A stretch of DNA of 64,000 bases from positions 65,595-129,594 of the forward strand of contig JAJZXY010000004.1 of assembly GCA_021806165.1 (NCBI GenBank), read 5' to 3'. The DNA is from Thermoplasmata archaeon (GTDB taxonomy: Archaea; Thermoplasmatota; Thermoplasmata; Sysuiplasmatales; Sysuiplasmataceae). Position numbers and translations under genes: made by a program. The notes beneath the pieces were generated by a model. That model was not told where the DNA came from. It made no database searches and saw only the letters and a program-made list of their open reading frames with translations. Shown piece after piece: positions 15,056-27,390 of this stretch; within the stretch, counting starts at the first letter, position 1, and the number at the start of each line of letters is the position of its first letter.

Positions 15056-15856
15056 TCACAGGCTTCCCAGGTAGATTTCGGTAGTCATCTCCATAAGCAC
15101 CTTCCCATCCTTCTGGTGTCTTTCAAACACGTCCGAGATTGCCTCCATCAGCTCCCCGTATGCATGTTCACCTTCAGCCGGCATGTAGGAGGCGGAGAGA
15201 AGGCGGCCCCTGAGACCGTCGAGAGTCAGCCATCTGTTATTTGGAAGCGTGAATCTCCTGTATGAGGAGAAGAAGAGGCGAAGCCCCTCGTCTCCCGGAC
15301 CCATGACAGGTGAGAAGTTCCTTCCGAACCTGCTGACAAGCTCCCGGTAGTCGGTGTTCAGCCCTCCAGTCCTGTCGCGTGTGTTGTATATGACAGCAGC
15401 CTTGCCGTTCCTTGATATGCGCCTGAGCTCCAGGGAGGCAGTTGAGGGGTTGAACCAGTGGAATGACTGCCCGGCGGTGACCATATCGACCGATTTATCC
15501 GGAAGGGTTGTCTCCTCGGCTGAGCCGGCGACGCTCCTGAACCCGCTGAACGATGAGAGAGCCTCCTCGGCGGCTGATCGCATGTCCGCATTAGGCTCAA
15601 CGCAGTAGACTGTGTTCCCGTTTTCCAGGAATAGGCTGCTGAGAATGCCCGTTCCGCTGCCTATGTCCGCTACGACGCTGCCGCTTCCGAAGGATGCCTC
15701 CCTTGCAAGTATCTCAAGAATGCCCCTGGGGTAGGGGGGCCTGTATTTCGCGTATGCTCCGGCCCTTCCGGTGAACCTGCTCTTTGCATCGGATGCGACC
15801 TTCCACTCAGACAATGCGCATCTCCTCCCTGAAGAACCGGCCGCCGGCATCGTCAA
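15056..15856 (-). CDS. Class I SAM-dependent methyltransferase
   Basis: Motif I 'VVADIGSGTGILS'. 266 aa. Confidence 0.6.
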   Translation of the reverse strand: MTMPAAGSSGRRCALSEWKVASDAKSRFTGRAGAYAKYRPPYPRGILEILAREASFGSGSVVADIGSGTGILSSLFLENGNTVYCVEPNADMRSAAEEALSSFSGFRSVAGSAEETTLPDKSVDMVTAGQSFHWFNPSTASLELRRISRNGKAAVIYNTRDRTGGLNTDYRELVSRFGRNFSPVMGPGDEGLRLFFSSYRRFTLPNNRWLTLDGLRGRLLSASYMPAEGEHAYGELMEAISDVFERHQKDGKVLMEMTTEIYLGSL

Positions 15857-16226
15857 GGCGCCACGATCTCGAGGAATCGGGGCTGCCCATCCTGATGCTC
15901 ATTATGAGGTAGGAGTAGGACGGCCATGCATGTGCCCGATCAAATTCGGAGGGAACAGAAGGATGGTCGGGGTGGGAGTGGTAGTAGCCAAGGACTACCA
16001 TGCCGGAGGCTGCTGCCCTCTTTTCCGCCTCCATTATCGACTGTGCATCAATGCTGTACCTCGTGCGCCTGGAATCGGGGGCGGAGTTGCGCGCCTTCCT
16101 GATTTCCTCAACCAGGTGATCGCGGCCGGCCCTGCCGATGAGGAAACCGCAGCATTCCTCCGGGTAGGTGGATACTGCATGCCGCCTGATCTCATCCAGC
16201 AGTGACAGAGGGAGAACAAGAGTCAT
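15807..16226 (-). CDS. JAMM/MPN+ zinc metalloprotease (Mec+/deSAMPylase-like)
   Basis: Catalytic motif E-x(n)-'HSHPDHPSVPSEFD' (HxHx7Sx2D) and 'EECCGFLIG'. The probable start is the internal Met 'MTLVLPLSLLDEI' at 16226, which avoids overlap with sufS. It is the last gene of the suf/cysO operon. Confidence 0.75.
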   Translation of the reverse strand: MTLVLPLSLLDEIRRHAVSTYPEECCGFLIGRAGRDHLVEEIRKARNSAPDSRRTRYSIDAQSIMEAEKRAAASGMVVLGYYHSHPDHPSVPSEFDRAHAWPSYSYLIMSIRMGSPDSSRSWRLDDAGGRFFREEMRIV

Positions 16227-16269
16227 CGCCTTGATATGAAAAGATGGTGGTAAAAAAAACTTGGCTGAA

Positions 16270-17508
16270 TCAGGCAAACACCTTTCTCACCCTGTCGATG
16301 GCCCGCATAAGTGCGTCGACATCATCCCTCCCGTTGTAGAGGTAGAAGGATGCCCTCGTTGTGGAGGGCTGTTCCAGCCAGTTCATCAGGGGCTGTGCGC
16401 AATGGTGCCCGGACCTTGTGGCGACCCCCTCTCTTCCGAGGATCTCGGCAACATCGTGTCCATGGACACCCTTCAGGTTGAATGAGATGAGGCCACTCCT
16501 CTCCTCCGGATCCCGGGGGCCGTATATCTCAATGTCTGGATGCTCCGACATCCTCTCCATTGCGTACGAGACAAGTGACCTGTCATACGCCTCGATCTTC
16601 TCCATTCCGATGCCACGCAGGTAGTCCACAGCAGCACCAAGGCCTATTGCACCTGAAATGTTCTGTGTTCCTGCCTCGAACTTGTAAGGCAGCTCGGCCC
16701 AGCTGGAGCCCGACTGTTTCACCTCACTTATCATTTCACCGCCGCCGAAAACAGGTTCCATCCTGCCCAGCAGTTCAGCCTTGCCATAAAGGACTCCTAT
16801 TCCAGTGGGTGCACACATCTTGTGACCCGAAACTGCCATCAGATCGCAGTCAATCTGCCTGACATCGACGGGCATATGCGGAACGGATTGAGCCGCATCG
16901 ACTATGAAAAGTGAGCCATTGTCGTGTGCAATCCTGCCTATCTCCCTTATGTTGTTTACCGTACCAAGAACATTGGAGACGTGGCTGACAGACACCACCC
17001 TTGTCCTCCCGCTGAGCTTCTCCATGAAATCGTCCATATCAAGCCTGCCGGAGGAGTCGAGCCCCGCAAACTTCACTTTCACACCCTTCCAGGAGAGCAT
17101 CTGCCACGGAACGATGTTTGAATGGTGCTCCATTACAGTGGTTAGCACCTCATCCCCCTCCTTCAGTGAATGTAAGCCGAGGCTGAGGGAGATTATGTTG
17201 AGCGCTTCCGTTGCACCGCGCACGAAAACGATCTCCTCCGGGCTCGCCGCATTTACAAATGACCTGAATTTCTCGCGTGATGCCTCGAATGCGTCGGTTG
17301 CCTTCTGGCTTAGCGGGTATATCCCACGGTGGACGTTGGAGTTGAACTCCTCTTCGAATGAGGAAACAGCACTTATCACAGAGGCAGGCTTCTGGCTGGT
17401 GGCTGCGCTGTCCAGATAGACGAGATTCTCGTTGCCTGGCGAGCTGAAGATTGGAAAATCTTCCCTGTACGGGGATTTTGCCGGCGGGATCTCTGTCAGA
17501 TGCATCAC
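16270..17508 (-). CDS. sufS: Cysteine desulfurase SufS (class V aminotransferase, group II)
   Basis: PLP-lysine 'SGHKMCAPTGIGVLY' and active-site 'RSGHHCAQPL'. 412 aa. Confidence 0.85.
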   Translation of the reverse strand: MMHLTEIPPAKSPYREDFPIFSSPGNENLVYLDSAATSQKPASVISAVSSFEEEFNSNVHRGIYPLSQKATDAFEASREKFRSFVNAASPEEIVFVRGATEALNIISLSLGLHSLKEGDEVLTTVMEHHSNIVPWQMLSWKGVKVKFAGLDSSGRLDMDDFMEKLSGRTRVVSVSHVSNVLGTVNNIREIGRIAHDNGSLFIVDAAQSVPHMPVDVRQIDCDLMAVSGHKMCAPTGIGVLYGKAELLGRMEPVFGGGEMISEVKQSGSSWAELPYKFEAGTQNISGAIGLGAAVDYLRGIGMEKIEAYDRSLVSYAMERMSEHPDIEIYGPRDPEERSGLISFNLKGVHGHDVAEILGREGVATRSGHHCAQPLMNWLEQPSTTRASFYLYNGRDDVDALMRAIDRVRKVFA

Positions 17509-17509
17509 C

Positions 17510-17815
17510 TCACAAGTCCACGAATATATCGCCGTCTACTATCTTAAGCTCGTACTTGCGCAGCGGTTCCTCGGCGGGCGGGTTATCCACTTCGCCTGTC
17601 CTTATGCTGAAACGTGAAAGATGGAGCGGACAGGTGATATTCTCCCCCATTATGATGCCTCGTGACAAGTCCGTATCTTCGTGTGTGCAGATTGCATCCA
17701 GCGCGTGGTATTCATCGCCCAGTTTTATGACCATTATGCTCACCCCGTCTGCGTCGACCCTTTTCACCCGGGCTGTCCCGAAGTCTGAAACAGAGGCGAC
17801 CTTCCTGAAGGTCAT
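17510..17815 (-). CDS. Rieske [2Fe-2S] domain protein
   Basis: Rieske boxes 'CTHEDTDLSRG' (CxH) and 'CPLH' (CxxH). 101 aa. Sits between sufD and sufS. Confidence 0.7.
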   Translation of the reverse strand: MTFRKVASVSDFGTARVKRVDADGVSIMVIKLGDEYHALDAICTHEDTDLSRGIIMGENITCPLHLSRFSIRTGEVDNPPAEEPLRKYELKIVDGDIFVDL

Positions 17816-17821
17816 CCTTCC

Positions 17822-19252
17822 TCACCTGTACTTGTAGTGACCCTCGAATATGTTCTCAGTGGTCTTTATCTGGTCCTTGACGTATTTCTCGAACTCAAGT
17901 TCGTCCAGATGCCTGTTGGACTCGAGGGAAATGACATTGTTCCACTTGTCCTCTATGAGGAAGCGCATCTTGTCCCTTACCGCCTCGGTGGGGATGCGGG
18001 AAATCACAGGATCAAAAAAGCCCATGACCATGAGCTTCTCCGCCTCATCACGCGAAAGTCCCCTCGTTTCCAGGTAGTAGAGCTGCCCCTCGTCCATTTG
18101 TGAAACAGACGCCGAATGTGTTGCCTTTACACCGTTTGTCAGTATCTCCAGTCCTGGAATAGCGTCACATTTGGCGTCCTTGCTGAGAAGCATACCGTGC
18201 TCGGCAAGGTAGGAGCTTGTGTTCGCTCCCCCTTCGCCTATGCGTATCATACCCCTGAGCAGGGACCTGCTCTTCTCCCTGAGAACGCTCCTGACAGTTA
18301 TCCTGCCGCTGGTGTCCGGAACTTCGTGGTGCAGATCAGTTACCACATCGAACCTCTGGCTGCCGTTTCCGAACAGTATTTCGTAATCCTCAGTGGTTGC
18401 CCCGCGGCCGGTGAACTTCGTGTCCGCCCTTGCCCTGGTCAGGTCCGAACCAATATAGCTGGAAACCCACCTGACGTTGCTTTCCTTCCCAGATAGTGAG
18501 CGCCTGTTGGATATGTAGACCGACTTCTGGGAAAGGTTCTCCAGGGATGCGTAACTCACCGACGAGCCGTCACCGGCGAAGATGTCGGTAACCTCGCTGA
18601 ACAGTGTTGGCTGTGAGCCGTTCTCGCGCGAAAGCACCTCCGAAAGTATCTCCACGGACGCGCCTTCCTCCAGATGAACTATGTTCTGGTGGAAGTGAGC
18701 GCTGCCGGGGGCATCGTCCACGAATACAGTATGGATAGGCTTTTTGAGGGTGGTGTTCCGCGGCACGTGGATGTAAGTACCTCCGGTCATCATTGCGTTG
18801 TTGAGCGCGACGTACATGTCATCCGAGGGTCTGAGCCCCTTTGACCCGAACAGTTCCTTCATCTTCTCCCCGTGGAGGGAGGAAGCAGTGCCCAGCTCCT
18901 CGATGATGACGCCATCTGGCAGGGATTTCCATTCGCTGTACAGTCCCGCACTGGACTGCACGCTGAAAATGCTGTCATCCCTGAGGCCGGCGAATTCGGC
19001 AGGGATCCTGTCCAGCGTTTCTGCAACAGGGGCTATCCTGAAGCCGCTGTCCTCGAATTTCGACAGATTCACGTACTTCTTGTAAAGCGGATTGGGCTCA
19101 GGTCTGGATGCGGCATAGACCGCAAGGGCCGCCTTCCTGTAATCGGTCAGCCAGGACTGTTCTCCCCTGAACCTGGGCAGCTGTTCCTCTTCCGGCTGTA
19201 GCAGACTCTGGGTAGCTGCTGTCAAAGGCACACACTCTCCTGTTTTCCTCAC
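17822..19252 (-). CDS. sufD: Fe-S cluster assembly protein SufD (SufB/SufD family paralog)
   Basis: 476 aa with a SufBD beta-helix domain. Its start overlaps the stop of sufB by 4 nt. Confidence 0.75.
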
Positions 19253-20664
19253 CCGACTGATCCAGTCATTTCGAGCTGAATCAGCCTGTTGAGCTCCACT
19301 GCATATTCCATCGGCAGCTCCTTGGAGAATACATCAAGGAAACCCATCACAATCATGTTCAGCGCATCGGCCTCTGAAAGACCCCTGGACATCAGATAGA
19401 AAAGCTGCTCTTCGCTTATTTTGCCCACAGTAGCCTCATGCGTCGTCGACGCGCTCTCCTCGTTGATTGTGTTGTAAGGGTAGGTGTCTGTCCTGGACTT
19501 CTCATCCACAAGTAGCGCGTCGCACCGCACGCTGCTCTTTGAGTTGAGGGCACCACGCTCAATATGAAGCTGCCCGCGATAGGTGGTTCTGCCACCGTCT
19601 TTGCTGACACTCTTGGAGGTGATCCTCGAGGTTGTGTCCTCGGCAAAGTGGAATATCTTGGCTCCGGCGTCCTGATGCTGTCCCTTTCCAGCAAACGCAA
19701 TTGAGATGACCTCGCCCTTTGCTCCCTTGCCTAGCAGGTAGACTGACGGGTATTTCATTGTGAGCTTCGAGCCTATGTTGCCGTCCACCCATTCCACGGT
19801 GGCGCCCTCGTATGCATAGGCGCGCTTGGTGACGAGGTTGTACACATTGTTGGACCAGTTCTGGATGGTTGTGTATCTCACATATGCGCCCTTCTTGGCG
19901 ATAATCTCCACTACCGCGGAGTGCAGAGAGTCGGAGGAGTATATTGGTGCGGTGCATCCTTCGATATAGTGCACCTTGCTGCCTTCGTCCGCAATAATAA
20001 GCGTGCGTTCGAACTGGCCGGCGTTCTTTGCGTTTATCCTGAAGTATGCCTGCAGCGGTATGTCTACCTCCACGCCCTTTGGGACATAGATGAAGCTGCC
20101 GCCGCTCCACACAGCGCTGTTCAGCGCAGCGAGCTTGTTGTCCTCGGGAGGAATTACAGTCCCGAAGTACTCCTTGAATATCTCTGGATGCTCCTGAAGA
20201 CCCTGATCGGTGCCCAGAAAGATTACGCCTTTCTTCTGCAGATCGTCCCTGATCTTGTGGTAGACGACTTCGCTGTCATACTGCGCTCCGACTCCACCCA
20301 GGAATTTTTTTTCCGCCTCAGGTATTCCCAGCTTGTCGAACGTATCCTTGATGTATGCGGGCACATCCTCCCACTTGTCAGACCCCCTCTCTGTGGGTGC
20401 CATGTAGTAGAATATGTCGTTGAAGTCCACATCCCCGAGCATGGGGCTGCCCCAGTCGGGCATCGGCTTCTTCAGGAATATGTCCAGGGACCTGAGCCTG
20501 AAGTCTGTCATCCACTGTGGCTCCTTCTTGAACTTCGAGATTGCCTGAACGACATCCCTGCTGAGTCCCTTCTGCGTCTGAAAGACGTACTTCGCGTCGG
20601 CATCGTGGAAGCCGTATCTGCTGTAGTCACGATCTATGATTTCATTCGTAGACATTTTCAACAC
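19249..20664 (-). CDS. sufB: Fe-S cluster assembly protein SufB
   Basis: 471 aa with the conserved SufB N-terminal region '[32 protein letters not shown]' and the SufBD core. Confidence 0.85.
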
Positions 20665-20679
20665 TCCTTTACTTGATTT

Positions 20680-22104
20680 TCAGTATCTGGCCATTGAAGG
20701 GTCCACCTTCAACGCCCATTCCACTATCCCTCCGGTCAGATTCCTGACCTTCTTGAATCCTATATCCCTCATGAAGCGGACTGCATAGCTGCTGCGCTGC
20801 CCGCCCTTGCAGTAGACAACAATCTCGTCGGCGGTGCTCAGTTCGCTCACCCTCGAGGGCAGATCGTTGACAGGTATGAACAGCGATCCATCGATCCTGT
20901 TGATTTCCCATTCCTGTGGTTCCCTCACGTCCAAGACCACCACCGGCTCCTTCGCCTTCAGCTTCCTGTCAAGCTCCTCTGCGCTTATGGAGAGGTCGTC
21001 TGAAAGTTCATTTCCCCTGCCCAGGCCGCAGAACTCCTCATAATCTATCAGTTCATGCACCGTGGGATTTTCACCGCACACAGGGCACCGGGGGTTCTTG
21101 CGGAGCGTCAGCTCCTTGAACTTCATCTTCATGGCGTCAAAAAGGACGAGTCTCCCGATCAGCGGCTCCCCTTCTCCCAGTATCAGCTTGATGGTTTCCA
21201 TCGCCTGTATAGTGCCTATTATGCCGGGCAGGACGCCCACAACCCCGCCCTCAGCGCATGAGGGGACGAGCCCCGGGGGAGGGGGGTTTTCATAGAGGCA
21301 CCTGTAGCATGGCCCCTTCCTGGCATCAAAGACGGAAACCTGGCCCTCGAACCTGTATATTGACCCGTAAACGTTCGTCTTTCCAAGCAGAACGCATGCG
21401 TCATTGACCAGATACCTGGTCGGGAAATTGTCGGTGCCGTCTATTACTATGTCGAAGTTCTTTATTATGTCGAGTGCATTTTCAGAGGTTATCCTCTCCT
21501 CGAACTTGATTATCTTGACAGTGGGGTTGATTCCCTTAATGCGCTCCTCAGCGGAATCAATCTTCTTGCGCCCTACATCCTTCTCCGAATGTATCACCTG
21601 CCGCTGGAGATTGCTGAAATCCACAACATCAAAGTCCACTATGCCAATTGTCCCGACGCCTGCCGCGGCAAGATAGAGGAGAAGGGGGGAGCCAAGGCCG
21701 CCCGCACCTATGACGAGGACCTTTGCCCTCTTCAGCTTCAGCTGTCCGCTGAGCCCGACCTCTGGGAGGAGCAGATGGCGGCTGTAGCGCTGTATGTCGT
21801 CGTAGGTGAAGTCGCTGCCTGCACCTGAGGAACCGCCTGCTATTGAGGGTATGAGGAAAATGGTGTCGCCTTCATGCACAGGAGTGGTCCCGCGCTGCAG
21901 GTACCGTATATCCTCGTCGTTCAGGTATACATTCACGAAATTCCTGAGCTGCCCGCTGTCATCAAACAGGTGTCTCTTCAGCTGCTGGTTTGCAGCCGTG
22001 ACATTGCTCAGGACCTCATCCACTGTCGCACCGTCGGCCGTGACAGCATCCCTGTTGCCCACGTAGGGCCTCAGGGGCGTTGGTATCATTACTTTCACAC
22101 TCAT
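20680..22104 (-). CDS. Fusion protein of a CysO-like ThiS/MoaD sulfur carrier (ends ..IAGG), a MoeB/ThiF E1-like adenylyltransferase and a rhodanese domain (MoeZ-like)
   Basis: Residues 1-91 'MSVKVMIPTPLRPYVGNRDAV...FVNVYLNDEDIRY...DTIFLIPSIAGG' form a beta-grasp carrier with a C-terminal diglycine. The linker 'SSGAGSDF' leads into E1 'YSRHLLLPEVGLSGQLKLKRAKVLVIGAGGLGS', which includes two CxxC pairs. The C-terminal rhodanese carries 'VVYCKGGQRS'. The start overlaps the cysM stop. Confidence 0.75.
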   Translation of the reverse strand: MSVKVMIPTPLRPYVGNRDAVTADGATVDEVLSNVTAANQQLKRHLFDDSGQLRNFVNVYLNDEDIRYLQRGTTPVHEGDTIFLIPSIAGGSSGAGSDFTYDDIQRYSRHLLLPEVGLSGQLKLKRAKVLVIGAGGLGSPLLLYLAAAGVGTIGIVDFDVVDFSNLQRQVIHSEKDVGRKKIDSAEERIKGINPTVKIIKFEERITSENALDIIKNFDIVIDGTDNFPTRYLVNDACVLLGKTNVYGSIYRFEGQVSVFDARKGPCYRCLYENPPPPGLVPSCAEGGVVGVLPGIIGTIQAMETIKLILGEGEPLIGRLVLFDAMKMKFKELTLRKNPRCPVCGENPTVHELIDYEEFCGLGRGNELSDDLSISAEELDRKLKAKEPVVVLDVREPQEWEINRIDGSLFIPVNDLPSRVSELSTADEIVVYCKGGQRSSYAVRFMRDIGFKKVRNLTGGIVEWALKVDPSMARY

Positions 22105-23033
22105 TCCTTGACCTCCCAGAACTTTTCACCCAGGTATTTCTGCCCACCGTCGGGGAAGACTGTCACAAAGGAGCCTCCGCCGTGCTCCCTTGCAATCTTC
22201 AGGCAGGCAACGACCGCCGCACCCGAGCTGGGTCCAACGAGCAGGCCCTCCTGTCTTGCAAGGCGCCTTACAGCACCCTGCGCTTCTTCGGTGGTCACGT
22301 CGACATGCATGTCTGCCAGGGTATCGTCGTATATCCCCGGCCTTATAGAGGCATCCATCCTCTTGAGTCCCTCAAGACCGTGAAATGGCCCGTCCGGCTC
22401 AACTGAAACTCTCTTAATCTCCGGAAAGACCTCCCTGAGATACCGGCTCACCCCTGTGAAAGTGCCTCCCGTGCCCACGCCTGCAACAAAGTAGTCGAAA
22501 TGCCCCCTTGTCTGTGAGACAATCTCGACTGCGGTGCCTTCATAGTGGGCCCGCCAGTTGGAATCGTTGTTGTACTGGTCAGCGTAGAAATACAGTTCAG
22601 GTTCCTCTTCGGACATCTTCCTGGCCAACCGCTGCGCACCGTCTGTACCTTCCAGCGGATCTGAAAGGACGAGATCCGCACCGTACGCGGTAAGCATCTC
22701 GATCTTCTCCCTTGCCACATTCCTCGGGATCACGAGCCTGCACCTGTACCCCTTGACAGCGCAAATCATGGCGTATGCAATGGCAGTGTTCCCTGACGAG
22801 GCGTCCAGAAGTATCCTGCCGTTGCCGAGTAATCCCTGTTTCTCAGCATCCTCAATGATCTTGCTGGCAGCGCGGTCCTTTACACTTCCTCCCGGATTGA
22901 AACACTCTGCCTTGGCATAAATCCGTGTGCCTGGCATGTCTGAAGTCATCTTCCTGAGAGCCAGAAGCGGAGTGTTGCCTATCCTGCTAAGAAGTGACCA
23001 TCCTGCATCATAGGCGAGGTTGTTACGCATCAA
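22101..23033 (-). CDS. cysM: Cysteine synthase family PLP enzyme (CysM/CysK-like; candidate sulfur-carrier-thiocarboxylate-dependent sulfhydrylase)
   Basis: PLP-binding 'GGSVKDRAA' and 'DASSGNTAIAYAM'. 310 aa. Translationally coupled (ATGA overlap) to the CysO::MoeZ gene. Confidence 0.8.
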   Translation of the reverse strand: MMRNNLAYDAGWSLLSRIGNTPLLALRKMTSDMPGTRIYAKAECFNPGGSVKDRAASKIIEDAEKQGLLGNGRILLDASSGNTAIAYAMICAVKGYRCRLVIPRNVAREKIEMLTAYGADLVLSDPLEGTDGAQRLARKMSEEEPELYFYADQYNNDSNWRAHYEGTAVEIVSQTRGHFDYFVAGVGTGGTFTGVSRYLREVFPEIKRVSVEPDGPFHGLEGLKRMDASIRPGIYDDTLADMHVDVTTEEAQGAVRRLARQEGLLVGPSSGAAVVACLKIAREHGGGSFVTVFPDGGQKYLGEKFWEVKE

Positions 23034-23401
23034 CGGGTCTCACCCGCTGCTTCCTGAAATACCTTCAGTCCCAGTGTCGCACACTTGAGACGAACTGCGC
23101 TGAGCGGTATGTGAAGCATCTCCTTTACACCGTCTATATCCATCTTCCTTGCCTCTTCAAGGCTCATGCCCTTCAGTTTGTCTGTCAGCATGGAGACTGA
23201 AGCCTGGCTGATGGCGCAGCCACGGCCATCAAATGAGACGGCCGAAATCTTGCCATCCGATATTTTGACATATATGCTTATGTCATCGCCGCAGACCGGA
23301 TTGTTTCCGTGGCCGAAGAGATCAGGATGCTCAATGCTTCCCTTGTTGTGCGGATTCTTGTAGTGTTCAAGAATCTCCTCCTGGTAGATGTCGTAGGCCA
23401 T
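23030..23401 (-). CDS. sufU: SufU/IscU-like (NifU N-terminal domain) Fe-S scaffold or sulfurtransferase
   Basis: 'NPVCGDDISIYVKI', 'GRGCAISQASVSML' and 'KCATL' give the three conserved Cys. 123 aa. Confidence 0.75.
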   Translation of the reverse strand: MAYDIYQEEILEHYKNPHNKGSIEHPDLFGHGNNPVCGDDISIYVKISDGKISAVSFDGRGCAISQASVSMLTDKLKGMSLEEARKMDIDGVKEMLHIPLSAVRLKCATLGLKVFQEAAGETR

Positions 23402-23412
23402 TTCTTTTATCC

Positions 23413-24186
23413 TCAGTTTGTTATGGCGGGCTCCCTGAGCCAGTCGTATCCCTTCTCCTCAAGCTCCTTTGCGAGCTCCTTTCCGCCGCTCTTCACGATT
23501 CTGCCATCGACGACTACGTGAACAAACTGCGGCGTTATGTACTGCAGTAGGCGCTGGTAGTGTGTGACAAGGATAAGGCCAACGTCCGGGCCGGCCATGG
23601 TGTTTATTGCATTTGCAACAACTTTCAGCGAATCAATGTCGAGCCCGCTGTCTGTCTCATCGAGTATTGCAAACCTTGGCTGCAGGACGGCCATCTGGAG
23701 GACCTCTGCCCTCTTCTTTTCGCCGCCGGAGAATCCCTCATTCAGGGACCTGCCTATGAAATTCTCGTCAATGCCGAGAGCGTTGACCTTCTCCTTGAGC
23801 AGCCTGAAGAATTTCGTCGGGCTGAGCTGATTGTCACTGTGGACTGCATTGTATGCAATCCTCAGGAAGTTCCCTAGCCTTACTCCCGGTATCTCAACCG
23901 GGTACTGGAATCCAAGGAAGAGGCCTAGTTTGGCCCTCTTGTCGGGAGTCAGCGACAGAACGTCCGTTCCGTCCACCTTCACCTCTCCCCCGGTAATCTG
24001 GTATTTTGGATGGCCCATGAGCGAATAGCTCAGCGTGCTCTTTCCAGATCCGTTGGGGCCCATTATCGCATGTATCTCACCCTGCTTCACGTCGAGGTTG
24101 ATTCCTTTTAGAATCTGCTTGCCTTCAATATTGACTTTCAGGTCCTTAATAGAGAGTTCCGATGACATTTCCTGTACCTCTGACAC
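23413..24186 (-). CDS. sufC: Fe-S cluster assembly ATPase SufC
   Basis: Walker A 'GPNGSGKST', signature 'FSGGEKKR', Walker B 'AILDETDSGLD'. 257 aa. First gene of the operon. Confidence 0.9.
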   Translation of the reverse strand: MSEVQEMSSELSIKDLKVNIEGKQILKGINLDVKQGEIHAIMGPNGSGKSTLSYSLMGHPKYQITGGEVKVDGTDVLSLTPDKRAKLGLFLGFQYPVEIPGVRLGNFLRIAYNAVHSDNQLSPTKFFRLLKEKVNALGIDENFIGRSLNEGFSGGEKKRAEVLQMAVLQPRFAILDETDSGLDIDSLKVVANAINTMAGPDVGLILVTHYQRLLQYITPQFVHVVVDGRIVKSGGKELAKELEEKGYDWLREPAITN

Positions 24187-24303
24187 CCAGTGGGCACTGT
24201 TTCAATTTCATCAATAAAGGCAAATCATATTTAAACATATCTTACTGTGTAAACTGCACAATGTTAATATACACACTACGGAGTAACTGGTGCAGGTAAG
24301 ACT
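24187..24303. promoter_or_regulatory. Divergent promoter and operator region between sufC and the Cys-rich HTH regulator
   Basis: AT-rich 117-nt gap with TATA-like boxes for both strands ('ttaatatac' ~30 nt upstream of the regulator ATG; 'ctttattgatg'/'tttaaatatg' on the sufC side). Contains a short palindrome 'cagtgggcactg' and an imperfect inverted repeat 'tgtgtaaa...tatacaca'. Confidence 0.35.
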
Positions 24304-24936
24304 GTGGACGCTGACATTTCAATGCTTGGCGAGTCAAAAGCCCGCATCATAAACTACCTTGGCGAAGGCGAGAAGTCGGGTAGCGAGCTTTCCTCCATGC
24401 TGAGCATCAACCAGACCGCCGTGAGAGAGCACGCCCAGGCGCTGGAGCGGATGGGGATAGTACAGGCAAGGTTCATAAGAACAGGCATAGGCCGCCCCAA
24501 GAAGCGCTATTCACTTACCCCCTTTGGTGTTGAACTGCTTCCAAAGCATTACGATGTCATGCTCAACGTGCTGATAAAGAAAATATGGGAGAGGGGTGGC
24601 GATGTTCTTCTCAGCCAGCTCATGTCGGACGTGGTGAAGGAGCTAGCCGACAGCTCGGCTAGCGAGGAGGGACTGACGCTCGAGCAGAGGGTGAACAGGG
24701 TAGTGGACTTCCTGAACCGCATGGGGTTCATGGCAACGGTCGAAAAGAGCGGCGAACAGCTGTCTGTTGTGAGACACAACTGCATCTTCAACAAGACTGC
24801 CAAGCTTTATTCAGGCGTCCTCTGCAGCGAGTGTGACACAGTGCTTATCAAAGAACCCATTGGCAGTAGGGAGATAGAGCTTGTCGAATGCATAGGCAAG
24901 GGCGACACTTCCTGCAGGAACGTAATCAAGGCGTGA
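24304..24936 (+). CDS. Winged-helix (ArsR-like) transcriptional regulator with a C-terminal Cys-rich, possibly Fe-S or metal-sensing, domain. It is the putative suf operon regulator.
   Basis: N-terminal HTH 'SKARIINYLGEGEKSGSELSSMLSINQTAVREHAQALERMGIV'. The C-terminal region carries C-x13-C-x2-C-x19-C-x8-C. It is divergently transcribed from sufC. Confidence 0.5.
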   Translation: MDADISMLGESKARIINYLGEGEKSGSELSSMLSINQTAVREHAQALERMGIVQARFIRTGIGRPKKRYSLTPFGVELLPKHYDVMLNVLIKKIWERGGDVLLSQLMSDVVKELADSSASEEGLTLEQRVNRVVDFLNRMGFMATVEKSGEQLSVVRHNCIFNKTAKLYSGVLCSECDTVLIKEPIGSREIELVECIGKGDTSCRNVIKA

Positions 24937-25008: not shown

Positions 25009-25977
25009 ATGAAGAGAAGACTCCTGTTCCAGGCCGCTGTCATAGGGCTTGCGGCGCTACTTCTGATGCCGCTCCTTTTCAGCGGAGCCGCAAGGGCGGA
25101 TGACGGAGGAGACAGGGAGACTTCGGTTAACGTCCAGGGACACGGCGGGTACTTTACAATCGACTCGCAGTCAACCAACCAGGTGGGACCCAGGAACGAG
25201 TACAGCATGGTTTTTGCAGCCAACTCATTCTTAATGCAATTCAAGAATGATTCCCAGAAGGCGGGGTATACTCTGCAGTTCAACATCCAGCTTCTGGATC
25301 TCCTGCTGGTTGGTCCCGGCAACATTACCGTCCTGCTGAACTTCTCACAGCAGGAGTTCAGCGTCTACCAGATACCATCCACAGTCAACGGGCTCAGCAC
25401 CTTTGCACTGAGCACAGAATCGGACAGTGCGACGTTCATGATGACCGTGCAGGTATCCAATACGCCCACATCAGTGCTTCCGCAGAACTCCTCAACCGCA
25501 ATCCAGCTTACTCCAAATGAAGTGAAAATCTCATTTATGATACAGCTTGGGAAGGTGAACGACGGCGGCTTCCGTAACCAGAGGGGCGGCCAGCCGCCCA
25601 ACGGCAGCATCGTGCTTCAGCTGGGCGTCAGTTCGGTCAATTCCACGATATCCCAGGTGGAGAATATGAGTGCTTACTCGCAAATCGGTTTCACCCAGGG
25701 TATGAATAGCGGTTACTTCTCCTGGGAAAACAGCGCGCTAGCCGATGGCAGGAATGTAACCGTCAATTCCTCATTCTCACCTGCTGTCGGAACACTTTCG
25801 CTTGCCTACCCCGCTGCATCGACCATCATCCATGACCCGTACATAGGCATCTCCCCGGGGACAATTGTGAATGCTCTGGTGTCCAGTCCCGGGAACATTG
25901 TAATATACGCGGTGACACTAGCGATTTCAGCAGCGCTTATCGGCGGGGCTGTGACTGCAAGGCGCAGGCGCGGATAG
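25009..25977 (+). CDS. Secreted or cell-surface protein with an N-terminal signal peptide and a C-terminal TM anchor plus Arg tail
   Basis: N-terminus 'MKRRLLFQAAVIGLAALLLMPLLFSGAARA' and a Ser/Thr/Asn-rich body with many N-x-S/T sequons. C-terminus 'IYAVTLAISAALIGGAVTARRRRG'. Confidence 0.5.
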   Translation: MKRRLLFQAAVIGLAALLLMPLLFSGAARADDGGDRETSVNVQGHGGYFTIDSQSTNQVGPRNEYSMVFAANSFLMQFKNDSQKAGYTLQFNIQLLDLLLVGPGNITVLLNFSQQEFSVYQIPSTVNGLSTFALSTESDSATFMMTVQVSNTPTSVLPQNSSTAIQLTPNEVKISFMIQLGKVNDGGFRNQRGGQPPNGSIVLQLGVSSVNSTISQVENMSAYSQIGFTQGMNSGYFSWENSALADGRNVTVNSSFSPAVGTLSLAYPAASTIIHDPYIGISPGTIVNALVSSPGNIVIYAVTLAISAALIGGAVTARRRRG

Positions 25978-26000
25978 GCGTGTGCGGGTTCAGTGCTTGA

Positions 26001-26282
26001 ATGACTCTCCTGAGCATAGGGACTGCGGAAAATGTGGTCGCAGCTGTTCTTGCAGTCCTCTCATTCACGCTTCTCCTGATTTCGATTGCTTCGTACAGGA
26101 GAAGCAGAAATCCAAGACTCGCGCTGATTTCGTCATCCTTCCTCCTGTTTTTCTTTGAAGGCGCTCTGTTCACATACCAGCTGTTCTATGGTTCTTTCAC
26201 ATCCCAGATGTTTTTCACAATCACTGGAATCATCAATGTGGCAATACTCCTGCTTATATTCACGGCCACTTTCAAGAGGTAG
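26001..26282 (+). CDS. Small membrane protein (3 predicted TM helices)
   Basis: 93 aa, entirely hydrophobic helices. Sits between the surface protein and the wHTH regulator. Confidence 0.35.
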   Translation: MTLLSIGTAENVVAAVLAVLSFTLLLISIASYRRSRNPRLALISSSFLLFFFEGALFTYQLFYGSFTSQMFFTITGIINVAILLLIFTATFKR

Positions 26283-26299
26283 CACGGGGGATTGCATCC

Positions 26300-26851
26300 T
26301 TGGGGGATGAGACTCTCGAACTTGAAACCAGAAGGAGGATCTACGAGGCAGTCAGGAAATTTCCCGGCATCCACCTGAGGGAGCTGTCGAGACAGCTGGG
26401 ACTGAGCGTACCGCTTGTGGATTACCACCTGAACTTCCTGGACAAGTACGGAATGGTTTCAGGTATTGCGGATGAGCAGTACAGGAGATTCTACCCAAGG
26501 GATCCGATTGGTGCGGAGAACAAGACGGACGTTCTTTCAGCCGACGAGAAGAGAGTTGTTGCGCTGCTGCGGCAGCGCATACCACTGCAGATAGTCCTGT
26601 TCCTGTTGAAAAACGGGACAGCTCAGCATAAGCAAATGGTCCCGCTGATGGGCATTTCACCCTCTACTCTCTCCCACCACCTCAACAAGCTCCACAGGAG
26701 GGGAATTCTTGTCAAGACCGTTTCCGGGGAGGAAAGGGGTTACAGGCTTGCGAACGAGGGACAGATCGCGAGGCTGTTGCTGACTTATGAGCCTCCGCCC
26801 GGGACTCTGGTGGACAGTTTCATAGAGATTTGGGAAGAATTCCACCAGTAG
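26300..26851 (+). CDS. Transcriptional regulator with two winged-HTH domains
   Basis: 'RRRIYEAVRKFPGIHLRELSRQLGLSVPLVDYHLNFLDKYGMV' and a second wHTH 'MVPLMGISPSTLSHHLNKLHRRGILVK'. Confidence 0.5.
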   Translation: MGDETLELETRRRIYEAVRKFPGIHLRELSRQLGLSVPLVDYHLNFLDKYGMVSGIADEQYRRFYPRDPIGAENKTDVLSADEKRVVALLRQRIPLQIVLFLLKNGTAQHKQMVPLMGISPSTLSHHLNKLHRRGILVKTVSGEERGYRLANEGQIARLLLTYEPPPGTLVDSFIEIWEEFHQ

Positions 26852-26913
26852 GCTGCTGGAAACTTAATATAATACCGCGAACTGGATTCCTTCCTGTCCG
26901 GCGTGGTGCACTT

Positions 26914-27390
26914 ATGCGTATAATGCTTAACGGCTGGGAAACCGGTATACGGTTCGTAGCAGGCCATTTTCTGCCTTCTATCGAGAAGTGCAGCAGACTG
27001 CATGGTCACAACTATGCTGTCCTCATAGAGATTGAGGGTGAGCCCGGACCTGATGGGATAATCATTGATTTCATCAGTGTCAAGGAGGCTGCCCATGCCA
27101 TCGTCCAGAGAATTGATCACAGGATGATACTGCCCTCCTCTGGCGCCTCAATGGAGGTTGCTCTGAAGGAAGGACACTACGCCGTTTCATTCAACGGCAA
27201 AAATTACCTCTTCCCGTCGGGTGACGTTGCGGTCATTCCGGTGGATAATGTCAGTGCCGAAAATCTGTCAAGGTATTTTCTTGCCGAAATAGTCCGCAGC
27301 GGCATCTTCGGTGATAACGTGACGAGGGTGGCCGTGGGTGTAGCCGAAGGAAGGGGGCAGGAAGCATGGTCGGAGGAGATGCTCAAATGA
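26914..27390 (+). CDS. queD: 6-carboxy-5,6,7,8-tetrahydropterin synthase QueD
   Basis: '[11 protein letters not shown]' (Zn-binding CxxHGH) and '[18 protein letters not shown]'. The internal Met at 26914 gives the canonical size. Confidence 0.75.

What the first reader, a model, noticed from the sequence alone, without database searches (positions are those of the whole stretch)
15807..24186. Fe-S assembly operon with an embedded sulfur-carrier module: sufC-sufU-cysM-CysO::MoeZ-sufB-sufD-Rieske-sufS-JAMM
All nine genes are co-oriented on the minus strand with short gaps or overlaps, so they are probably one transcript. The cysM and CysO::MoeZ pair is inserted between sufCU and sufBD. A JAMM/Mec+ type protease (HxHx7Sx2D) follows sufS as the last gene. 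In Mycobacterium the JAMM protease Mec+ trims the carrier to expose or regenerate Gly-Gly. Its presence here fits processing of the fused carrier. Embedding the sulfur-carrier system inside the suf operon suggests coupling with Fe-S biogenesis, for example an alternative sulfur route or coordinated cysteine supply. A small Rieske 2Fe-2S protein between sufD and sufS is also not a standard suf component.
Basis: partly seen in the sequence, partly recalled or inferred. Interest (0 to 1): 0.7.

Follow-up and report, generated by a model that had tools for sequence, protein, structure and literature searches.

The report
Archaeal suf operon with cysteine-synthesis module
An archaeon's operon for building iron-sulfur clusters also carries a bacterial-type module that makes cysteine from a protein-bound sulfur carrier, so the machine and its sulfur substrate are probably made together; every part is a known kind, and only the combination is unusual.

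Summary
Nine co-oriented minus-strand genes sit at 15807-24186: sufC, a U-type protein, cysM, a CysO::E1::rhodanese fusion, sufB, sufD, a Rieske ferredoxin, sufS and a JAMM peptidase. Gaps run from -8 to +15 nt. The order is identical in five further Thermoplasmata/Methanomassiliicoccales-like loci (fusion 72-87% identical).

- The triple fusion hit the 8000-protein listing cap.
- cysM-JAMM-carrier/E1 is a common bacterial cassette, catalogued in 2006.
- A Rieske gene accompanies 31 of 42 related suf operons and sits at the same position in a Bathyarchaeia operon.

What seems undescribed is this cassette split and embedded in an archaeal suf operon, under a conserved SufR-like bidirectional promoter. 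The cassette also sits next to ISC, SUF and encapsulin cysteine-desulfurase operons in bacteria.

JAMM processing is well supported. AGG is invariant. About 40 of 80 bacterial carriers are unfused, and every one still has a 1-37 residue tail after GG.

Most likely function: oxidation-tolerant, thiocarboxylate-dependent cysteine synthesis co-expressed with SufS/SufU/SufBCD. This rests on inference, with no experiment. I rate it a new variant of known kinds, of moderate interest.

The parts
24304..24936 (+). Divergently transcribed ArsR-type winged-helix regulator (210 aa) with a Cys-rich C-terminal half; a distant SufR-like protein.
   Evidence: Pfam HTH_5. The best NCBIfam hit is SufR_cyano TIGR02702, E 9e-13, covering 12-203 of 210 residues, but 48 bits is below the 179-bit cut-off. 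It sits at the same position in all clade loci. Homologues at 25-31% identity lie next to many bacterial-type suf operons.
24211..24271 (.). Conserved bidirectional promoter/operator block. TTTAAATA (minus strand, 24228-24235) faces sufC. TTAATATA (plus strand, 24264-24271) faces the regulator. The conserved TTGTGCA(A/G)TTTA(C/G)ACAGTAAGATATG lies between them.
   Evidence: Alignment A2 of six loci: positions 40-100 are almost invariant while the flanks are not. Assignment as TATA boxes and operator is inference.
23413..24168 (-). sufC, Fe-S assembly ATPase. The ORF can extend to the GTG at 24186; the ATG at 24168 matches relatives.
   Evidence: TIGR01978 348.5 bits against a cut-off of 212.8; start comparison.
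23030..23401 (-). U-type sulfur-transfer/scaffold protein (SufU/IscU-like, 123 aa; Cys37, Cys62, Cys107, with Lys before the third Cys).
   Evidence: NifU_N. SufU TIGR01994 109.3 against 92.5, but only model positions 3-95 of 137 are aligned. The best solved relatives are archaeal IscU proteins (4eb5_C, 7c8n), then Bacillus SufU. Cysteine positions.
22101..23033 (-). CysM-like PLP-dependent cysteine synthase (310 aa; PLP lysine in SVKDR at K52; SSGNT loop). It overlaps both neighbouring genes by 4 nt.
   Evidence: PALP 239 bits. cysM TIGR01138 335.5 against 394.2, below the cut-off. The best solved relatives are Salmonella and E. coli CysM, E about 1e-65. It is 50-56% identical to the CysM of bacterial cassettes.
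21832..22104 (-). CysO-like beta-grasp sulfur-carrier domain (residues 1-91) ending PSIAGG. Cleavage is predicted after Gly91, between nt 21832 and 21831.
   Evidence: It aligns end to end with M. tuberculosis CysO (3dwg_C residues 1-93, E 1.6e-16). AGG was found in 117 of the 120 homologues examined, and G90/G91 are invariant in alignment A1.
21811..21831 (-). Linker SSGAGSD between the carrier and the E1 domain.
   Evidence: Its length and sequence vary among homologues (11-35 residues from GG to the RYxR motif). AlphaFold2 pLDDT is below 50 over most of residues 88-115 (segments 88-97, 103-105 and 107-115).
20680..21810 (-). MoeB/MoeZ-type E1 adenylyltransferase with a C-terminal rhodanese domain. 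Features: GAGGLG 133-138, Zn motifs CYRC 266-269 and CPVC 340-343, crossover-loop Cys283, rhodanese loop CKGGQRS 432-438.
   Evidence: ThiF 291 bits and Rhodanese 74 bits. PRK08762 477.7 against 449; MoeZ PRK07878 490 against 647. All of these residues are invariant in A1.
19249..20655 (-). sufB.
   Evidence: TIGR01980 704 bits. It is 86-94% identical within the clade. The next relatives are at 72-76%: Bathyarchaeia, Nitrososphaerales and others.
17822..19252 (-). sufD.
   Evidence: TIGR01981 230.5 against 222.
17510..17815 (-). Rieske-type [2Fe-2S] ferredoxin (101 aa; CTH at 43-45, CPLH at 62-65).
   Evidence: Pfam Rieske. The best solved relatives are BphF-type dioxygenase ferredoxins. The gene sits at the same position in Bathyarchaeia locus L173. 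Of 42 related suf loci that contain sufS, 31 also have a Rieske homologue.
16270..17508 (-). sufS, group II cysteine desulfurase (SGHK PLP lysine, RSGHHCA catalytic Cys370).
   Evidence: TIGR01979 563.6 against 475.1; motifs.
16252..16259 (-). T8 run on the transcribed strand between the sufS stop codon and the JAMM ATG. It could be a partial archaeal terminator or a T/A-rich promoter element.
   Evidence: It is shared only with the closest relative, L082 (T6). It is absent in L086, and in L084 and L088 the two genes abut or overlap.
15807..16226 (-). JAMM/MPN+ zinc peptidase (139 aa from the ATG). It is predicted to cut after Gly91 of the fusion and to release cysteine from the carrier-Gly-Gly-Cys intermediate.
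   Evidence: Prok-JAB 90 bits. The HxHx7Sx2D motif and the glutamate are present. The best solved relative is 2kcq_A, E 1.7e-26, much better than archaeal JAMM1 5ld9 at 9e-8. It is 30-48% identical to JAMMs of bacterial cassettes, and 84 of 85 JAMM homologues in the fetched loci keep the motif.
15056..15814 (-). Class I SAM-dependent methyltransferase (about 252 aa from the TTG at 15814, preceded by GGGAGGAG). It overlaps the JAMM stop codon. It is a variable tenth gene of unknown role.
   Evidence: Methyltransf_11/25. Start analysis. It is present after the JAMM in L082 and L170 and absent in L084, L086 and L088.

Best explanation
This is a composite operon in a Thermoplasmata-type archaeon. 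A SUF Fe-S assembly system (SufC, SufB, SufD, SufS, a U-type protein and a Rieske ferredoxin) has absorbed a bacterial-type, protein-thiocarboxylate-dependent cysteine synthesis cassette (CysM, CysO-like carrier fused to an E1-rhodanese enzyme, and a JAMM peptidase).

Proposed mechanism. Steps 1 and 6 rest on sequence evidence; the others are inferred.
1. One conserved bidirectional promoter, probably controlled by the divergent SufR-like Fe-S-sensing regulator, drives sufC through JAMM.
2. The 474-residue fusion is made as a pro-protein. The JAMM cuts after Gly91 and releases a 91-residue carrier with a free Gly-Gly carboxylate. Adenylation requires that free carboxylate.
3. The E1 domain adenylates the carrier. 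Sulfur then converts it to a thiocarboxylate. The sulfur comes either from sulfide or from a persulfide on Cys432 of the rhodanese domain.
4. CysM condenses the thiocarboxylate with the aminoacrylate formed from O-acetyl- or O-phospho-serine. After the S-to-N acyl shift the product is carrier-Gly-Gly-Cys.
5. The same JAMM hydrolyses that bond, which is chemically the same task as removing a one-residue tail. This releases cysteine and recycles the carrier.
6. SufS takes sulfur from the cysteine and passes it through the U-type protein to SufBCD. The Rieske ferredoxin supplies electrons.

The net effect is that an oxidation-tolerant cysteine supply is switched on together with the stress-tolerant Fe-S assembly machine that consumes cysteine.
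For: - Gene identities and catalytic residues are all confirmed.
- Tight junctions with internal SD-like motifs. The nine-gene order is identical in five further loci despite 46-75% identity for the faster-evolving proteins. A single nearly invariant promoter block with TATA boxes lies upstream. Intrinsic-terminator-like hairpins are no more frequent than in shuffles, 8 against 7.8.
- The cassette origin is clear. The best matches outside the clade for the fusion (63-66%), CysM (50-56%) and JAMM (30-48%) are all in bacterial cysM-JAMM-carrier/E1-Rhd cassettes. This arrangement was seen in about 75 of 80 species genomes. It is the operon type listed by Iyer et al. 2006 (PMC1779556).
- A reference suf order without the module exists: Bathyarchaeia L173 is sufC-B-D-Rieske-S-U, with SufB 74% identical.
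- Processing by the JAMM is supported on several counts. PS[IV]AGG was found in 117 of 120 fusions and is followed by a variable linker. AlphaFold2 predicts that junction to be disordered. No free-standing carrier gene lies in the operon. About half of the 80 bacterial cassettes have an unfused carrier, and every one of about 40 has a tail of 1-37 residues after GG; none ends at GG. L096 (AGGKS*) and L104 (AGGR*) show the same. The JAMM motif is kept in 84 of 85 JAMM homologues. A fused MoaD-MoaE of M. tuberculosis is known to be cut after Gly-Gly and to need that cut for activity (PMC4326299).
- The carrier domain is CysO-like, aligning end to end with 3dwg_C.
- Functional coupling to Fe-S and sulfur mobilisation is supported by independent arrangements elsewhere. 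In Vicinamibacteria the cassette lies directly upstream of IscR-IscS-IscU-IscA-HscB-HscA-Fdx (L017; the same tblastn pattern in L002, L005, L008, L010, L018 and L067). It lies directly downstream of, or beside, suf operons in L096, L099 and L104. It is convergent with a family 2A encapsulin and its cysteine-desulfurase cargo, plus cysE and a rhodanese, in L071.
- The M. tuberculosis cysM/cysO/mec/moeZ genes are induced by oxidative stress (PMC11361707).
Against: - Nothing here is experimental.
- A T8 run follows sufS in this window, so the JAMM may be partly uncoupled transcriptionally.
- CysM, the E1 and the JAMM all score below the curated equivalog cut-offs for cysM, MoeZ and desampylase, so exact substrates are not established. 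O-acetylserine versus O-phosphoserine could not be decided.
- The sulfur source of the thiocarboxylate is unknown even in M. tuberculosis (PMC3227635). In every characterised rhodanese-E1 system I know of, the donor is a cysteine desulfurase. With a CysM acceptor that would make a futile cycle, so the direction of sulfur flow between SufS and the module is not settled.
- Only 64 kb of the genome is visible. Other cysteine pathways, carriers or E1 enzymes cannot be excluded.
- The linked bacterial loci are partly related to one another, so they are fewer independent events than loci.
Confidence: 0.6

Rival explanations
1. Sulfur flows the other way. SufS persulfide loads the rhodanese domain of the E1. 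The carrier thiocarboxylate then serves other thiolations (molybdopterin, tRNA), or it returns surplus or damaged-cluster sulfane sulfur to cysteine through CysM. In this reading the module consumes or recycles SufS sulfur and is not an upstream cysteine supply.
For: The cassette repeatedly neighbours cysteine desulfurases of three kinds: IscS, SufS and an encapsulin cargo. L096 places a two-domain rhodanese (3-mercaptopyruvate sulfurtransferase-like) and a second U-type protein directly before cysM. The E1 passes the MoeB PRK08762 cut-off. M. tuberculosis MoeZR serves both CysO and MoaD, and the sulfur source for CysO is stated to be unknown (PMC3227635). Cysteine desulfurase to rhodanese to Ubl is the usual route in E. 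coli, Thermus and humans (reviews listed; details are from my own knowledge).
Against: cysM is translationally coupled to the carrier gene (4-nt overlap) here and is part of about 75 of 80 bacterial cassettes. Cysteine to persulfide to thiocarboxylate to cysteine gives no net product and costs ATP. No MoaE, MoaA, NcsA or ThiG-type acceptor lies in the operon.
Confidence: 0.2
2. The adjacency has no functional meaning. A transferred bacterial cassette landed in, and was then rearranged within, a highly expressed operon. It is carried along in one archaeal clade.
For: The embedded arrangement was seen only in one clade, 17 protein clusters at 72-100% identity. The cassette's nearest relatives are bacterial. 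Most bacterial cassettes (about 65 of 80) have no Fe-S genes within 10 kb.
Against: The split arrangement is kept intact across relatives whose SufD, Rieske and JAMM proteins are only 46-62% identical. Linkage to Fe-S or cysteine-desulfurase operons recurs in at least four different architectures in unrelated lineages. The overlapping start and stop codons imply translational coupling.
Confidence: 0.1
3. The carrier, E1 and JAMM form an archaeal SAMP-like protein-conjugation system (SAMP/UbaA/JAMM1 type) that modifies proteins, possibly the Suf proteins, and does not make cysteine.
For: The organism is an archaeon. There are sub-threshold NCBIfam hits to SAMP1 (50.8 against 60), UbaA (347 against 450) and desampylase (85 against 130). 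Iyer et al. proposed conjugation roles for JAB-linked E1 systems.
Against: All three scores are below the curated cut-offs. The carrier domain matches CysO end to end. The JAMM is far closer to a bacterial MPN protein (2kcq, 1.7e-26) than to archaeal JAMM1 (9e-8). The E1 carries a rhodanese domain, and a CysM gene overlaps the carrier gene. The same three genes are a bacterial cassette.
Confidence: 0.06
4. The N-terminal beta-grasp domain is never cleaved. It is a regulatory or docking domain of the E1, as proposed for some Ubl-ThiF fusions, and the real carrier is encoded elsewhere.
For: Iyer et al. note ThiF proteins with a fused N-terminal Ubl that co-occur with free-standing ThiS, which suggests a different role for the fused domain.
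Against: No free-standing carrier lies in the operon or in the fused bacterial cassettes. Fused and unfused forms alternate among close relatives at the same position. The AGG end is invariant and the linker is variable and predicted to be disordered. A JAMM gene always accompanies the fusion.
Confidence: 0.04

Closest known systems
M. tuberculosis CysO / CysM / Mec+ / MoeZ(R) cysteine biosynthesis pathway
   Same: It has the same four activities: a beta-grasp carrier ending AGG (end-to-end match to CysO, 3dwg_C), a PLP cysteine synthase of the CysK/CysM family, a JAMM zinc hydrolase, and an E1 with a C-terminal rhodanese. The chemistry is expected to be the same: adenylation, thiocarboxylate formation, carrier-Cys adduct, hydrolysis.
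   Different: Here the carrier is translated as one polypeptide with the E1-rhodanese, so a maturation cut is needed. The CysM is closer to enterobacterial CysM than to the top-ranked mycobacterial entries in PDB, and its acceptor substrate is unknown. The genes are embedded in a suf operon and the JAMM is four genes away from the carrier. The host is an archaeon.
Operon type 4c of Iyer, Burroughs and Aravind 2006 (ThiS/MoaD-like + E1-rhodanese + JAB + cysteine synthase), PMC1779556
   Same: All four components are present and homologous (50-66% for CysM and the fusion). Those authors also predicted that the JAB frees a fused Ubl.
   Different: That type is a contiguous cassette reported in bacteria. 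Here it is split in two (cysM-fusion and JAMM), interleaved with sufB-sufD-Rieske-sufS, and found in archaea.
Bacterial/archaeal SUF operons of the sufC-B-D-(Rieske)-S-U type (for example Bathyarchaeia L173; the Streptomyces suf cluster with Rieske ferredoxin Fdx4, PMC12979805)
   Same: SufC, SufB, SufD and SufS score above the curated cut-offs. The Rieske gene lies between sufD and sufS exactly as in L173. A SufR-like regulator lies upstream.
   Different: The U-type gene has moved to follow sufC, three cysteine-synthesis genes have been added, and the U-type protein is a short form without the long SufU insertion.
Precursor sulfur carriers trimmed by JAMM peptidases (QbsE/QbsD in thioquinolobactin synthesis, HcyS/HcyD in Wolinella methionine synthesis), and the M. 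tuberculosis MoaX (MoaD-MoaE) fusion that is cut after Gly-Gly (PMC4326299)
   Same: The carrier is made with residues after Gly-Gly that must be removed before adenylation. A JAMM is encoded alongside it.
   Different: Here the extension is a whole 383-residue enzyme that is itself the carrier's activating partner. QbsD and HcyD are cited from my own knowledge. The MoaX protease is unidentified.
Haloferax SAMP / UbaA / HvJAMM1 system
   Same: It is also an archaeal system with a beta-grasp Gly-Gly carrier, a MoeB-type E1 and a JAMM.
   Different: All three NCBIfam equivalog scores are below their cut-offs. The E1 here has a rhodanese domain. A cysM gene is coupled to the carrier. The nearest relatives are bacterial cassettes.

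Membership tests
SUF Fe-S cluster assembly system | SufB, SufC and SufD scaffold/ATPase proteins | tested here: met
   TIGR01980 704.4 against 346.4; TIGR01978 348.5 against 212.8; TIGR01981 230.5 against 222.
SUF Fe-S cluster assembly system | Group II cysteine desulfurase SufS with a PLP lysine and a catalytic cysteine | tested here: met
   TIGR01979 563.6 against 475.1. SGHK at residue 227 and RSGHHCA with Cys370.
SUF Fe-S cluster assembly system | SufU-type zinc sulfur-transfer partner of SufS, as opposed to an IscU-type scaffold | tested here: inconclusive
   TIGR01994 scores 109.3 against 92.5, but only model positions 3-95 of 137 are aligned. The three Cys are present and Lys replaces the IscU His before Cys107. 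The best solved matches are archaeal IscU proteins over the full length, and the protein has no long SufU insertion.
CysO/CysM/Mec+/MoeZ thiocarboxylate-dependent cysteine synthesis | Small beta-grasp carrier ending in Gly-Gly | tested here: met
   Residues 1-91 align to CysO 3dwg_C residues 1-93, E 1.6e-16. AGG is invariant. It is fused, so a free C-terminus requires cleavage, and that cleavage has not been shown.
CysO/CysM/Mec+/MoeZ thiocarboxylate-dependent cysteine synthesis | MoeZ-type E1 with a C-terminal rhodanese and an active-site cysteine | tested here: inconclusive
   The architecture and all catalytic residues are present. MoeZ equivalog NF005902 scores 490 against 647, below the cut-off. 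MoeB PRK08762 scores 477.7 against 449, above it.
CysO/CysM/Mec+/MoeZ thiocarboxylate-dependent cysteine synthesis | CysM that accepts the carrier thiocarboxylate and O-phosphoserine | not testable with these tools
   It belongs to the CysK/CysM family, with the PLP lysine and SSGNT loop present. TIGR01138 scores 335.5 against 394.2. Substrate choice cannot be read from the sequence here.
CysO/CysM/Mec+/MoeZ thiocarboxylate-dependent cysteine synthesis | JAMM/MPN+ zinc hydrolase with E...HxHx7Sx2D | tested here: met
   PEECCG at residue 39 and HSHPDHPSVPSEFD at 100-113. Prok-JAB 90.4 bits.
Iyer et al. 2006 operon type 4c | Co-occurrence of a ThiS/MoaD-like carrier, E1-rhodanese, JAB and cysteine synthase in one predicted operon | tested here: met
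   All four are in the same co-oriented block. They are not contiguous, because sufB-sufD-Rieske-sufS separates the JAB from the rest.
Archaeal SAMP/UbaA/JAMM1 sampylation system | Equivalog-level match to SAMP, UbaA and desampylase | tested here: not met
   NF041918 50.8 against 60; NF047750 346.9 against 450; NF041370 85 against 130. The JAMM is closer to bacterial 2kcq than to JAMM1 5ld9.
SufR regulators | Winged-helix protein with a C-terminal Fe-S-binding cysteine motif, encoded next to suf | tested here: inconclusive
   TIGR02702 gives a full-length alignment at E 9e-13, but 48.4 bits against 178.8. The position next to suf is conserved. Cluster binding was not tested.

The most novel reading that the evidence does not exclude
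The recurrent fusion of this cassette with SUF, ISC and encapsulin cysteine-desulfurase operons may reflect a direct protein-to-protein sulfur circuit rather than plain co-regulation. In one version, the carrier thiocarboxylate is an alternative, oxidation-protected sulfur donor to the U-type protein or to SufBCD. In another, the rhodanese-E1 captures persulfide or sulfane sulfur from SufS, SufU or damaged clusters, and CysM and the JAMM return it to cysteine. The second version would be a sulfur-salvage loop attached to Fe-S assembly. It would also answer the open question of where CysO sulfur comes from.
Probability: 0.12. Interest if true: 0.8.

Novelty: new variant of a known kind. Interest (0 to 1): 0.42.

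Why it matters
- It extends the protein-thiocarboxylate route to cysteine to archaea. [quoted passage not shown]
- It shows that the cysteine-synthesis module has been joined repeatedly to the machines that consume cysteine sulfur (SUF, ISC, encapsulated desulfurase). That gives a concrete, testable hypothesis about how cells secure sulfur for Fe-S clusters under stress. It also bears on the unresolved question of the sulfur source for CysO (PMC3227635).
- It offers a general explanation for the obligatory JAMM. The carrier is always made with something after Gly-Gly, and the catalytic intermediate is itself Gly-Gly plus one residue, so stop-codon loss and fusion to the E1 cost nothing.
- None of the individual proteins is new, and the fusion is commonly annotated simply as MoeB.

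Tried and rejected
- Sigma-70 promoter scan. It is not applicable to an archaeon and only picked out the AT-rich upstream region.
- Hairpin-terminator scan. It found 8 sites against 7.8 in shuffles, so it is uninformative. I used oligo-T runs instead.
- tRNA and Rfam scans of the window found nothing.
- P0073, a 'Thermoplasmata archaeon' fusion at 61% identity, sits on a 2.8-kb contig with no informative neighbours. I could not tell whether other archaea carry the contiguous cassette.
- I tried to decide O-phosphoserine versus O-acetylserine from the alignment to solved CysM structures and from a review. I could not align the determinant residue of the mycobacterial enzyme, so I dropped this.
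- The AlphaFold2 monomer model of the fusion gave confident domains and a disordered junction. It cannot show whether the carrier docks in cis. I ran no fold search because the domains were already identified by sequence.
- I considered the U-type gene as part of the imported module, because L096 and L099 have a second U-type gene directly before cysM. The window's protein is closer to the canonical SufU of L096 (50%) than to that second copy (31%), so I left this open.
- Literature searches combining CysO with sufB, and carrier terms with Fe-S terms, found no description of this linkage in the held library. That is not proof that none exists.

Full report
**1. What is there**

ORF listing and Pfam/NCBIfam scans confirm nine co-oriented minus-strand genes between 15807 and 24186.

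| Gene | Coordinates | Main evidence |
|---|---|---|
| sufC | 23413-24186 | TIGR01978 348 against 213 |
| U-type protein | 23030-23401 | NifU_N; SufU TIGR01994 109 against 92.5 |
| cysM-like PLP enzyme | 22101-23033 | PALP 239 bits |
| ThiS + ThiF + Rhodanese fusion (474 aa) | 20680-22104 | three Pfam domains |
| sufB | 19249-20664 | TIGR01980 704 |
| sufD | 17822-19252 | TIGR01981 230.5 against 222 |
| Rieske ferredoxin (101 aa) | 17510-17815 | Pfam Rieske |
| sufS | 16270-17508 | TIGR01979 564 |
| Prok-JAB peptidase | 15807-16277 | Prok-JAB 90 bits |

The catalytic signatures are all present:
- JAMM: PEECCG and HSHPDHPSVPSEFD.
- E1: GAGGLG, CYRC, CPVC and Cys283.
- Rhodanese: CKGGQRS.
- Rieske: CTH and CPLH.
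- SufS: SGHK and RSGHHCA.
- CysM: SVKDR and SSGNT.

Junction gaps are +11, -4, -4, +15, -4, +6, +1 and -8 nt, and most carry GGAGG/GAGG-like motifs before the internal starts.

The rest of the window is plainly archaeal: Orc1/Cdc6, the primase small subunit, TiaS, Dph2, the PolD small subunit and A-type ATPase. Sources name the closest relatives of the fusion as Thermoplasmata or Methanomassiliicoccales MAGs.

**2. Refinements to the anatomy**

- By comparison with relatives, sufC starts at the ATG at 24168.
- The JAMM most likely starts at the ATG at 16226 (139 aa; relatives have 137-146 aa). That leaves about 44 nt after the sufS stop codon, and this stretch holds a T8 run on the transcribed strand (16252-16259). 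Only the closest relative, L082, shares a T-run. L086 has none, and in L084 and L088 sufS and the JAMM gene abut or overlap. So JAMM co-transcription is the rule in the clade but is slightly uncertain in this window.
- A class I methyltransferase (15056-15814) overlaps the JAMM stop codon and is preceded by GGGAGGAG. It occurs in 3 of the 6 clade loci.
- Upstream, an ArsR-type regulator (24304-24936, + strand) is transcribed divergently. Its best NCBIfam match is cyanobacterial SufR over the full length, though far below the cut-off.
- The 117-nt intergenic region holds a block of about 50 bp that is almost invariant in six loci, while its flanks vary (A2). The block contains TTTAAATA facing sufC (24228-24235), TTAATATA facing the regulator (24264-24271), and a conserved stretch between them that I take to be an operator. 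That last point is inference.

**3. Conservation**

The fusion's exact sequence occurs on other contigs. Relatives with fusion proteins 72-87% identical (L082, L084, L086/L087, L088, L170) have the same nine genes in the same order and the same flanking synteny. This holds even though Rieske, JAMM and SufD identity falls to 46-62%. The arrangement is therefore maintained by selection and is not a recent accident.

**4. The sulfur-carrier module is a known, common bacterial cassette**

- A scan of one genome per species found at least 595 relatives of the full-length fusion. The best 80 are mostly Acidobacteriota and Gemmatimonadota at 51-66% identity.
- In about 75 of those 80 genomes the neighbours are cysM-JAMM-carrier/E1-Rhd, in that order.
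[quoted passage not shown] Those authors also predicted that a JAB would free a fused Ubl.
- The window's CysM (50-56%), JAMM (30-48%) and fusion (63-66%) all find their best matches outside the clade in these cassettes. This fits acquisition of the cassette from bacteria, followed by a split.
- The carrier domain aligns end to end with M. tuberculosis CysO (3dwg_C, E 1.6e-16).
- The JAMM is much closer to a bacterial MPN protein (2kcq, 1.7e-26) than to archaeal JAMM1 (9e-8).

**5. Evidence that the JAMM matures the carrier**

Adenylation needs a free carboxylate, so a fused carrier must be cut.

- PS[IV]AGG was found in 117 of the 120 homologues examined. It is followed by a linker of variable length and sequence (invariants G90 and G91 in A1).
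- AlphaFold2 (mean pLDDT 82.8) gives confident carrier, E1 and rhodanese domains. Most of residues 88-115, which hold the AGG end and the linker, fall below pLDDT 50.
- Among the 80 bacterial loci about half have an unfused carrier. All of these roughly 40 carriers have a tail after GG: one residue in 15 cases and up to 37 residues in others. None ends at GG. The carriers next to suf in L096 (AGGKS*) and L104 (AGGR*) do the same.
- The JAMM motif is kept in 84 of 85 JAMM homologues in the fetched loci.

The product of the CysM reaction, after the acyl shift, is carrier-Gly-Gly-Cys (pathway as described in PMC3227635 and PMC11361707). That is itself 'GG plus one residue'. One hydrolase can therefore do both the maturation and the turnover step. 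On this reading, tails and whole-enzyme fusions are tolerated because the hydrolase is needed anyway. The M. tuberculosis MoaD-MoaE fusion MoaX is an experimental precedent. It is cut after Gly-Gly, and the cut is required for activity (PMC4326299).

**6. The suf part and the Rieske gene**

- A metagenome scan with SufB returned 80 suf loci at 63-71% identity. Of the 42 that also contain sufS, 31 have a Rieske homologue.
- The closest SufB proteins outside the clade (72-76%) come from Bathyarchaeia, Nitrososphaerales and others. Bathyarchaeia locus L173 reads sufC-sufB-sufD-Rieske-sufS-sufU.
- Streptomyces also has a Rieske-type ferredoxin in its suf cluster (PMC12979805).
- The Rieske gene is therefore an ordinary accessory of this suf type, presumably the electron donor. 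That role is inference.
- Measured against L173, the window's clade differs in three ways. The U-type gene has moved to follow sufC. The cysM-fusion pair sits between it and sufB. The JAMM occupies the place after sufS.
- The U-type protein is a short form. It passes the SufU cut-off on a partial alignment, has Lys before the third Cys, and aligns over its full length to archaeal IscU structures.

**7. Is the linkage meaningful?**

The same cassette is joined to sulfur-mobilising or Fe-S systems in at least four different ways.

1. Embedded in suf, in this clade.
2. Directly after or beside suf operons in L096, L099 and L104. L096 reads SufR-sufC-D-S-U-B-Rieske-(two-domain rhodanese)-(second U-type)-cysM-JAMM-CysO-E1Rhd.
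3. Directly upstream of a complete Rrf2/IscR-IscS-IscU-IscA-HscB-HscA-Fdx operon in Vicinamibacteria L017. The same tblastn pattern appears in L002, L005, L008, L010, L018 and L067.
4. Convergent with a family 2A encapsulin shell, its cysteine-desulfurase cargo, cysE and a rhodanese in L071, and by tblastn in L044 and L080.

These loci are partly related, and most cassettes (about 65 of 80) have no such neighbour. The association is therefore recurrent but not universal. I found no paper in the held library that describes it.

**8. Most likely mechanism**

A SufR-like regulator controls a single promoter. The operon makes the SUF machine together with a sulfide-sparing, oxidation-tolerant cysteine route. 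The steps are:

1. The JAMM cuts the fusion after Gly91.
2. The E1 adenylates the carrier, and sulfur from sulfide or from a rhodanese persulfide gives the thiocarboxylate.
3. CysM forms the carrier-Cys adduct.
4. The JAMM releases cysteine.
5. SufS, the U-type protein, SufBCD and the Rieske ferredoxin build clusters.

Sequence evidence shows the gene identities, catalytic residues, conserved order, promoter block and the invariant Gly-Gly with obligatory tails. Co-transcription, the cleavage itself, the sulfur source, the CysM acceptor substrate and the physiological coupling are all inferred.

The main rival reverses the flow, with SufS loading the rhodanese. That is the usual route for Ubl thiocarboxylates. 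Combined with CysM it would be futile unless the loop serves sulfur salvage. I cannot exclude it, and the sulfur source for CysO is an acknowledged open question (PMC3227635).

**9. Verdict**

It is overstated on the Rieske gene and on the rarity of the fusion. Every protein belongs to a known family. The new element is the composite architecture in an archaeal lineage, together with the broader recurrent link between this cysteine route and Fe-S assembly operons. I rate it a new variant of known kinds, of moderate interest.

Noticed in passing
L011 (about 5529), L014 (about 8726), L045, L052, L057, L058, L061, L062, L063, L076 (carrier ORF ends near locus position 10250 in the 10-kb-flank loci): In many unfused acidobacterial carriers the tail after AGG is cysteine-rich. 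Examples are CCPCGCCCCPR, SCACCCPCRMNA, CCCCCQLLALSSWL, and a recurring ...RCICS/RCICR ending. I cannot explain these. They could bind metal or sulfur before removal.
   Followed up: partly
L017:157-8799 (also L002, L005, L008, L010, L018, L067): In Vicinamibacteria the cysM-JAMM-fusion cassette lies directly upstream, on the same strand, of a complete Rrf2/IscR-IscS-IscU-IscA-HscB-HscA-Fdx operon.
   Followed up: yes
L071:11574-17091 (also L044, L080): The cassette is convergent with a family 2A encapsulin shell gene, its 919-aa cysteine-desulfurase cargo, a serine O-acetyltransferase (cysE) and a single-domain rhodanese.
   Followed up: yes
L096:5251-16357; L104:195-9340; L099: These are bacterial-type suf operons directly followed by the cassette. 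In L096 a two-domain rhodanese (3-mercaptopyruvate sulfurtransferase-like) and a second U-type protein precede cysM. In L104 the E1 has its rhodanese at the N-terminus, and cysM follows the E1.
   Followed up: partly
window 41450-41900: This is a probable replication origin beside the orc1/cdc6 gene (40163-41428). GC falls to 0.38-0.47 against 0.54 elsewhere. Three ORB-like elements related to TTCCACAGGAAA lie at 41555-41566 (-), 41614-41625 (+) and 41748-41759 (+). The outer two form a 13-nt inverted repeat.
   Followed up: partly
window 16252-16259: A T8 run on the transcribed strand lies between the sufS stop codon and the JAMM ATG. Only the closest relative shares it (T6 in L082). It may be a partial terminator or a T/A-rich promoter element for a near-leaderless JAMM-methyltransferase transcript.
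   Followed up: partly
window 15056-15814: A class I SAM methyltransferase overlaps the JAMM stop codon. It is present after the JAMM in 3 of 6 clade loci (window, L082, L170). Its link to the pathway is unknown.
   Followed up: partly
window 11400-12170: An FTR1-family iron permease gene lies about 3.6 kb beyond the JAMM end of the suf operon. It is also present near the operon in L082 and L170, but not in L084, L086 or L088.
   Followed up: no
window 25009-28680: A block next to the regulator is syntenic in all clade loci. It holds a 322-aa protein with no Pfam match, a 93-aa hydrophobic protein, an HVO_0163-like double-HTH regulator, and then PTPS/QueD-like, QueC and radical-SAM (QueE-like) genes for 7-deazaguanine (archaeosine) synthesis.
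   Followed up: no
P0123, P0124 (relatives of SufB): Two SufB homologues (650 and 723 aa) among the highest-scoring hits in the search (identity to the query not reported) carry intein domains (PF14890). This recalls the SufB intein of mycobacteria.
   Followed up: no
window 43664-45744 and 47821-51286: Thiolase and 3-hydroxyacyl-CoA dehydrogenase genes, and a three-gene 2-oxoacid:ferredoxin oxidoreductase cluster, point to a heterotrophic, ferredoxin-dependent metabolism. No methanogenesis genes were among the 36 window proteins outside the finding that I scanned against Pfam.
   Followed up: no
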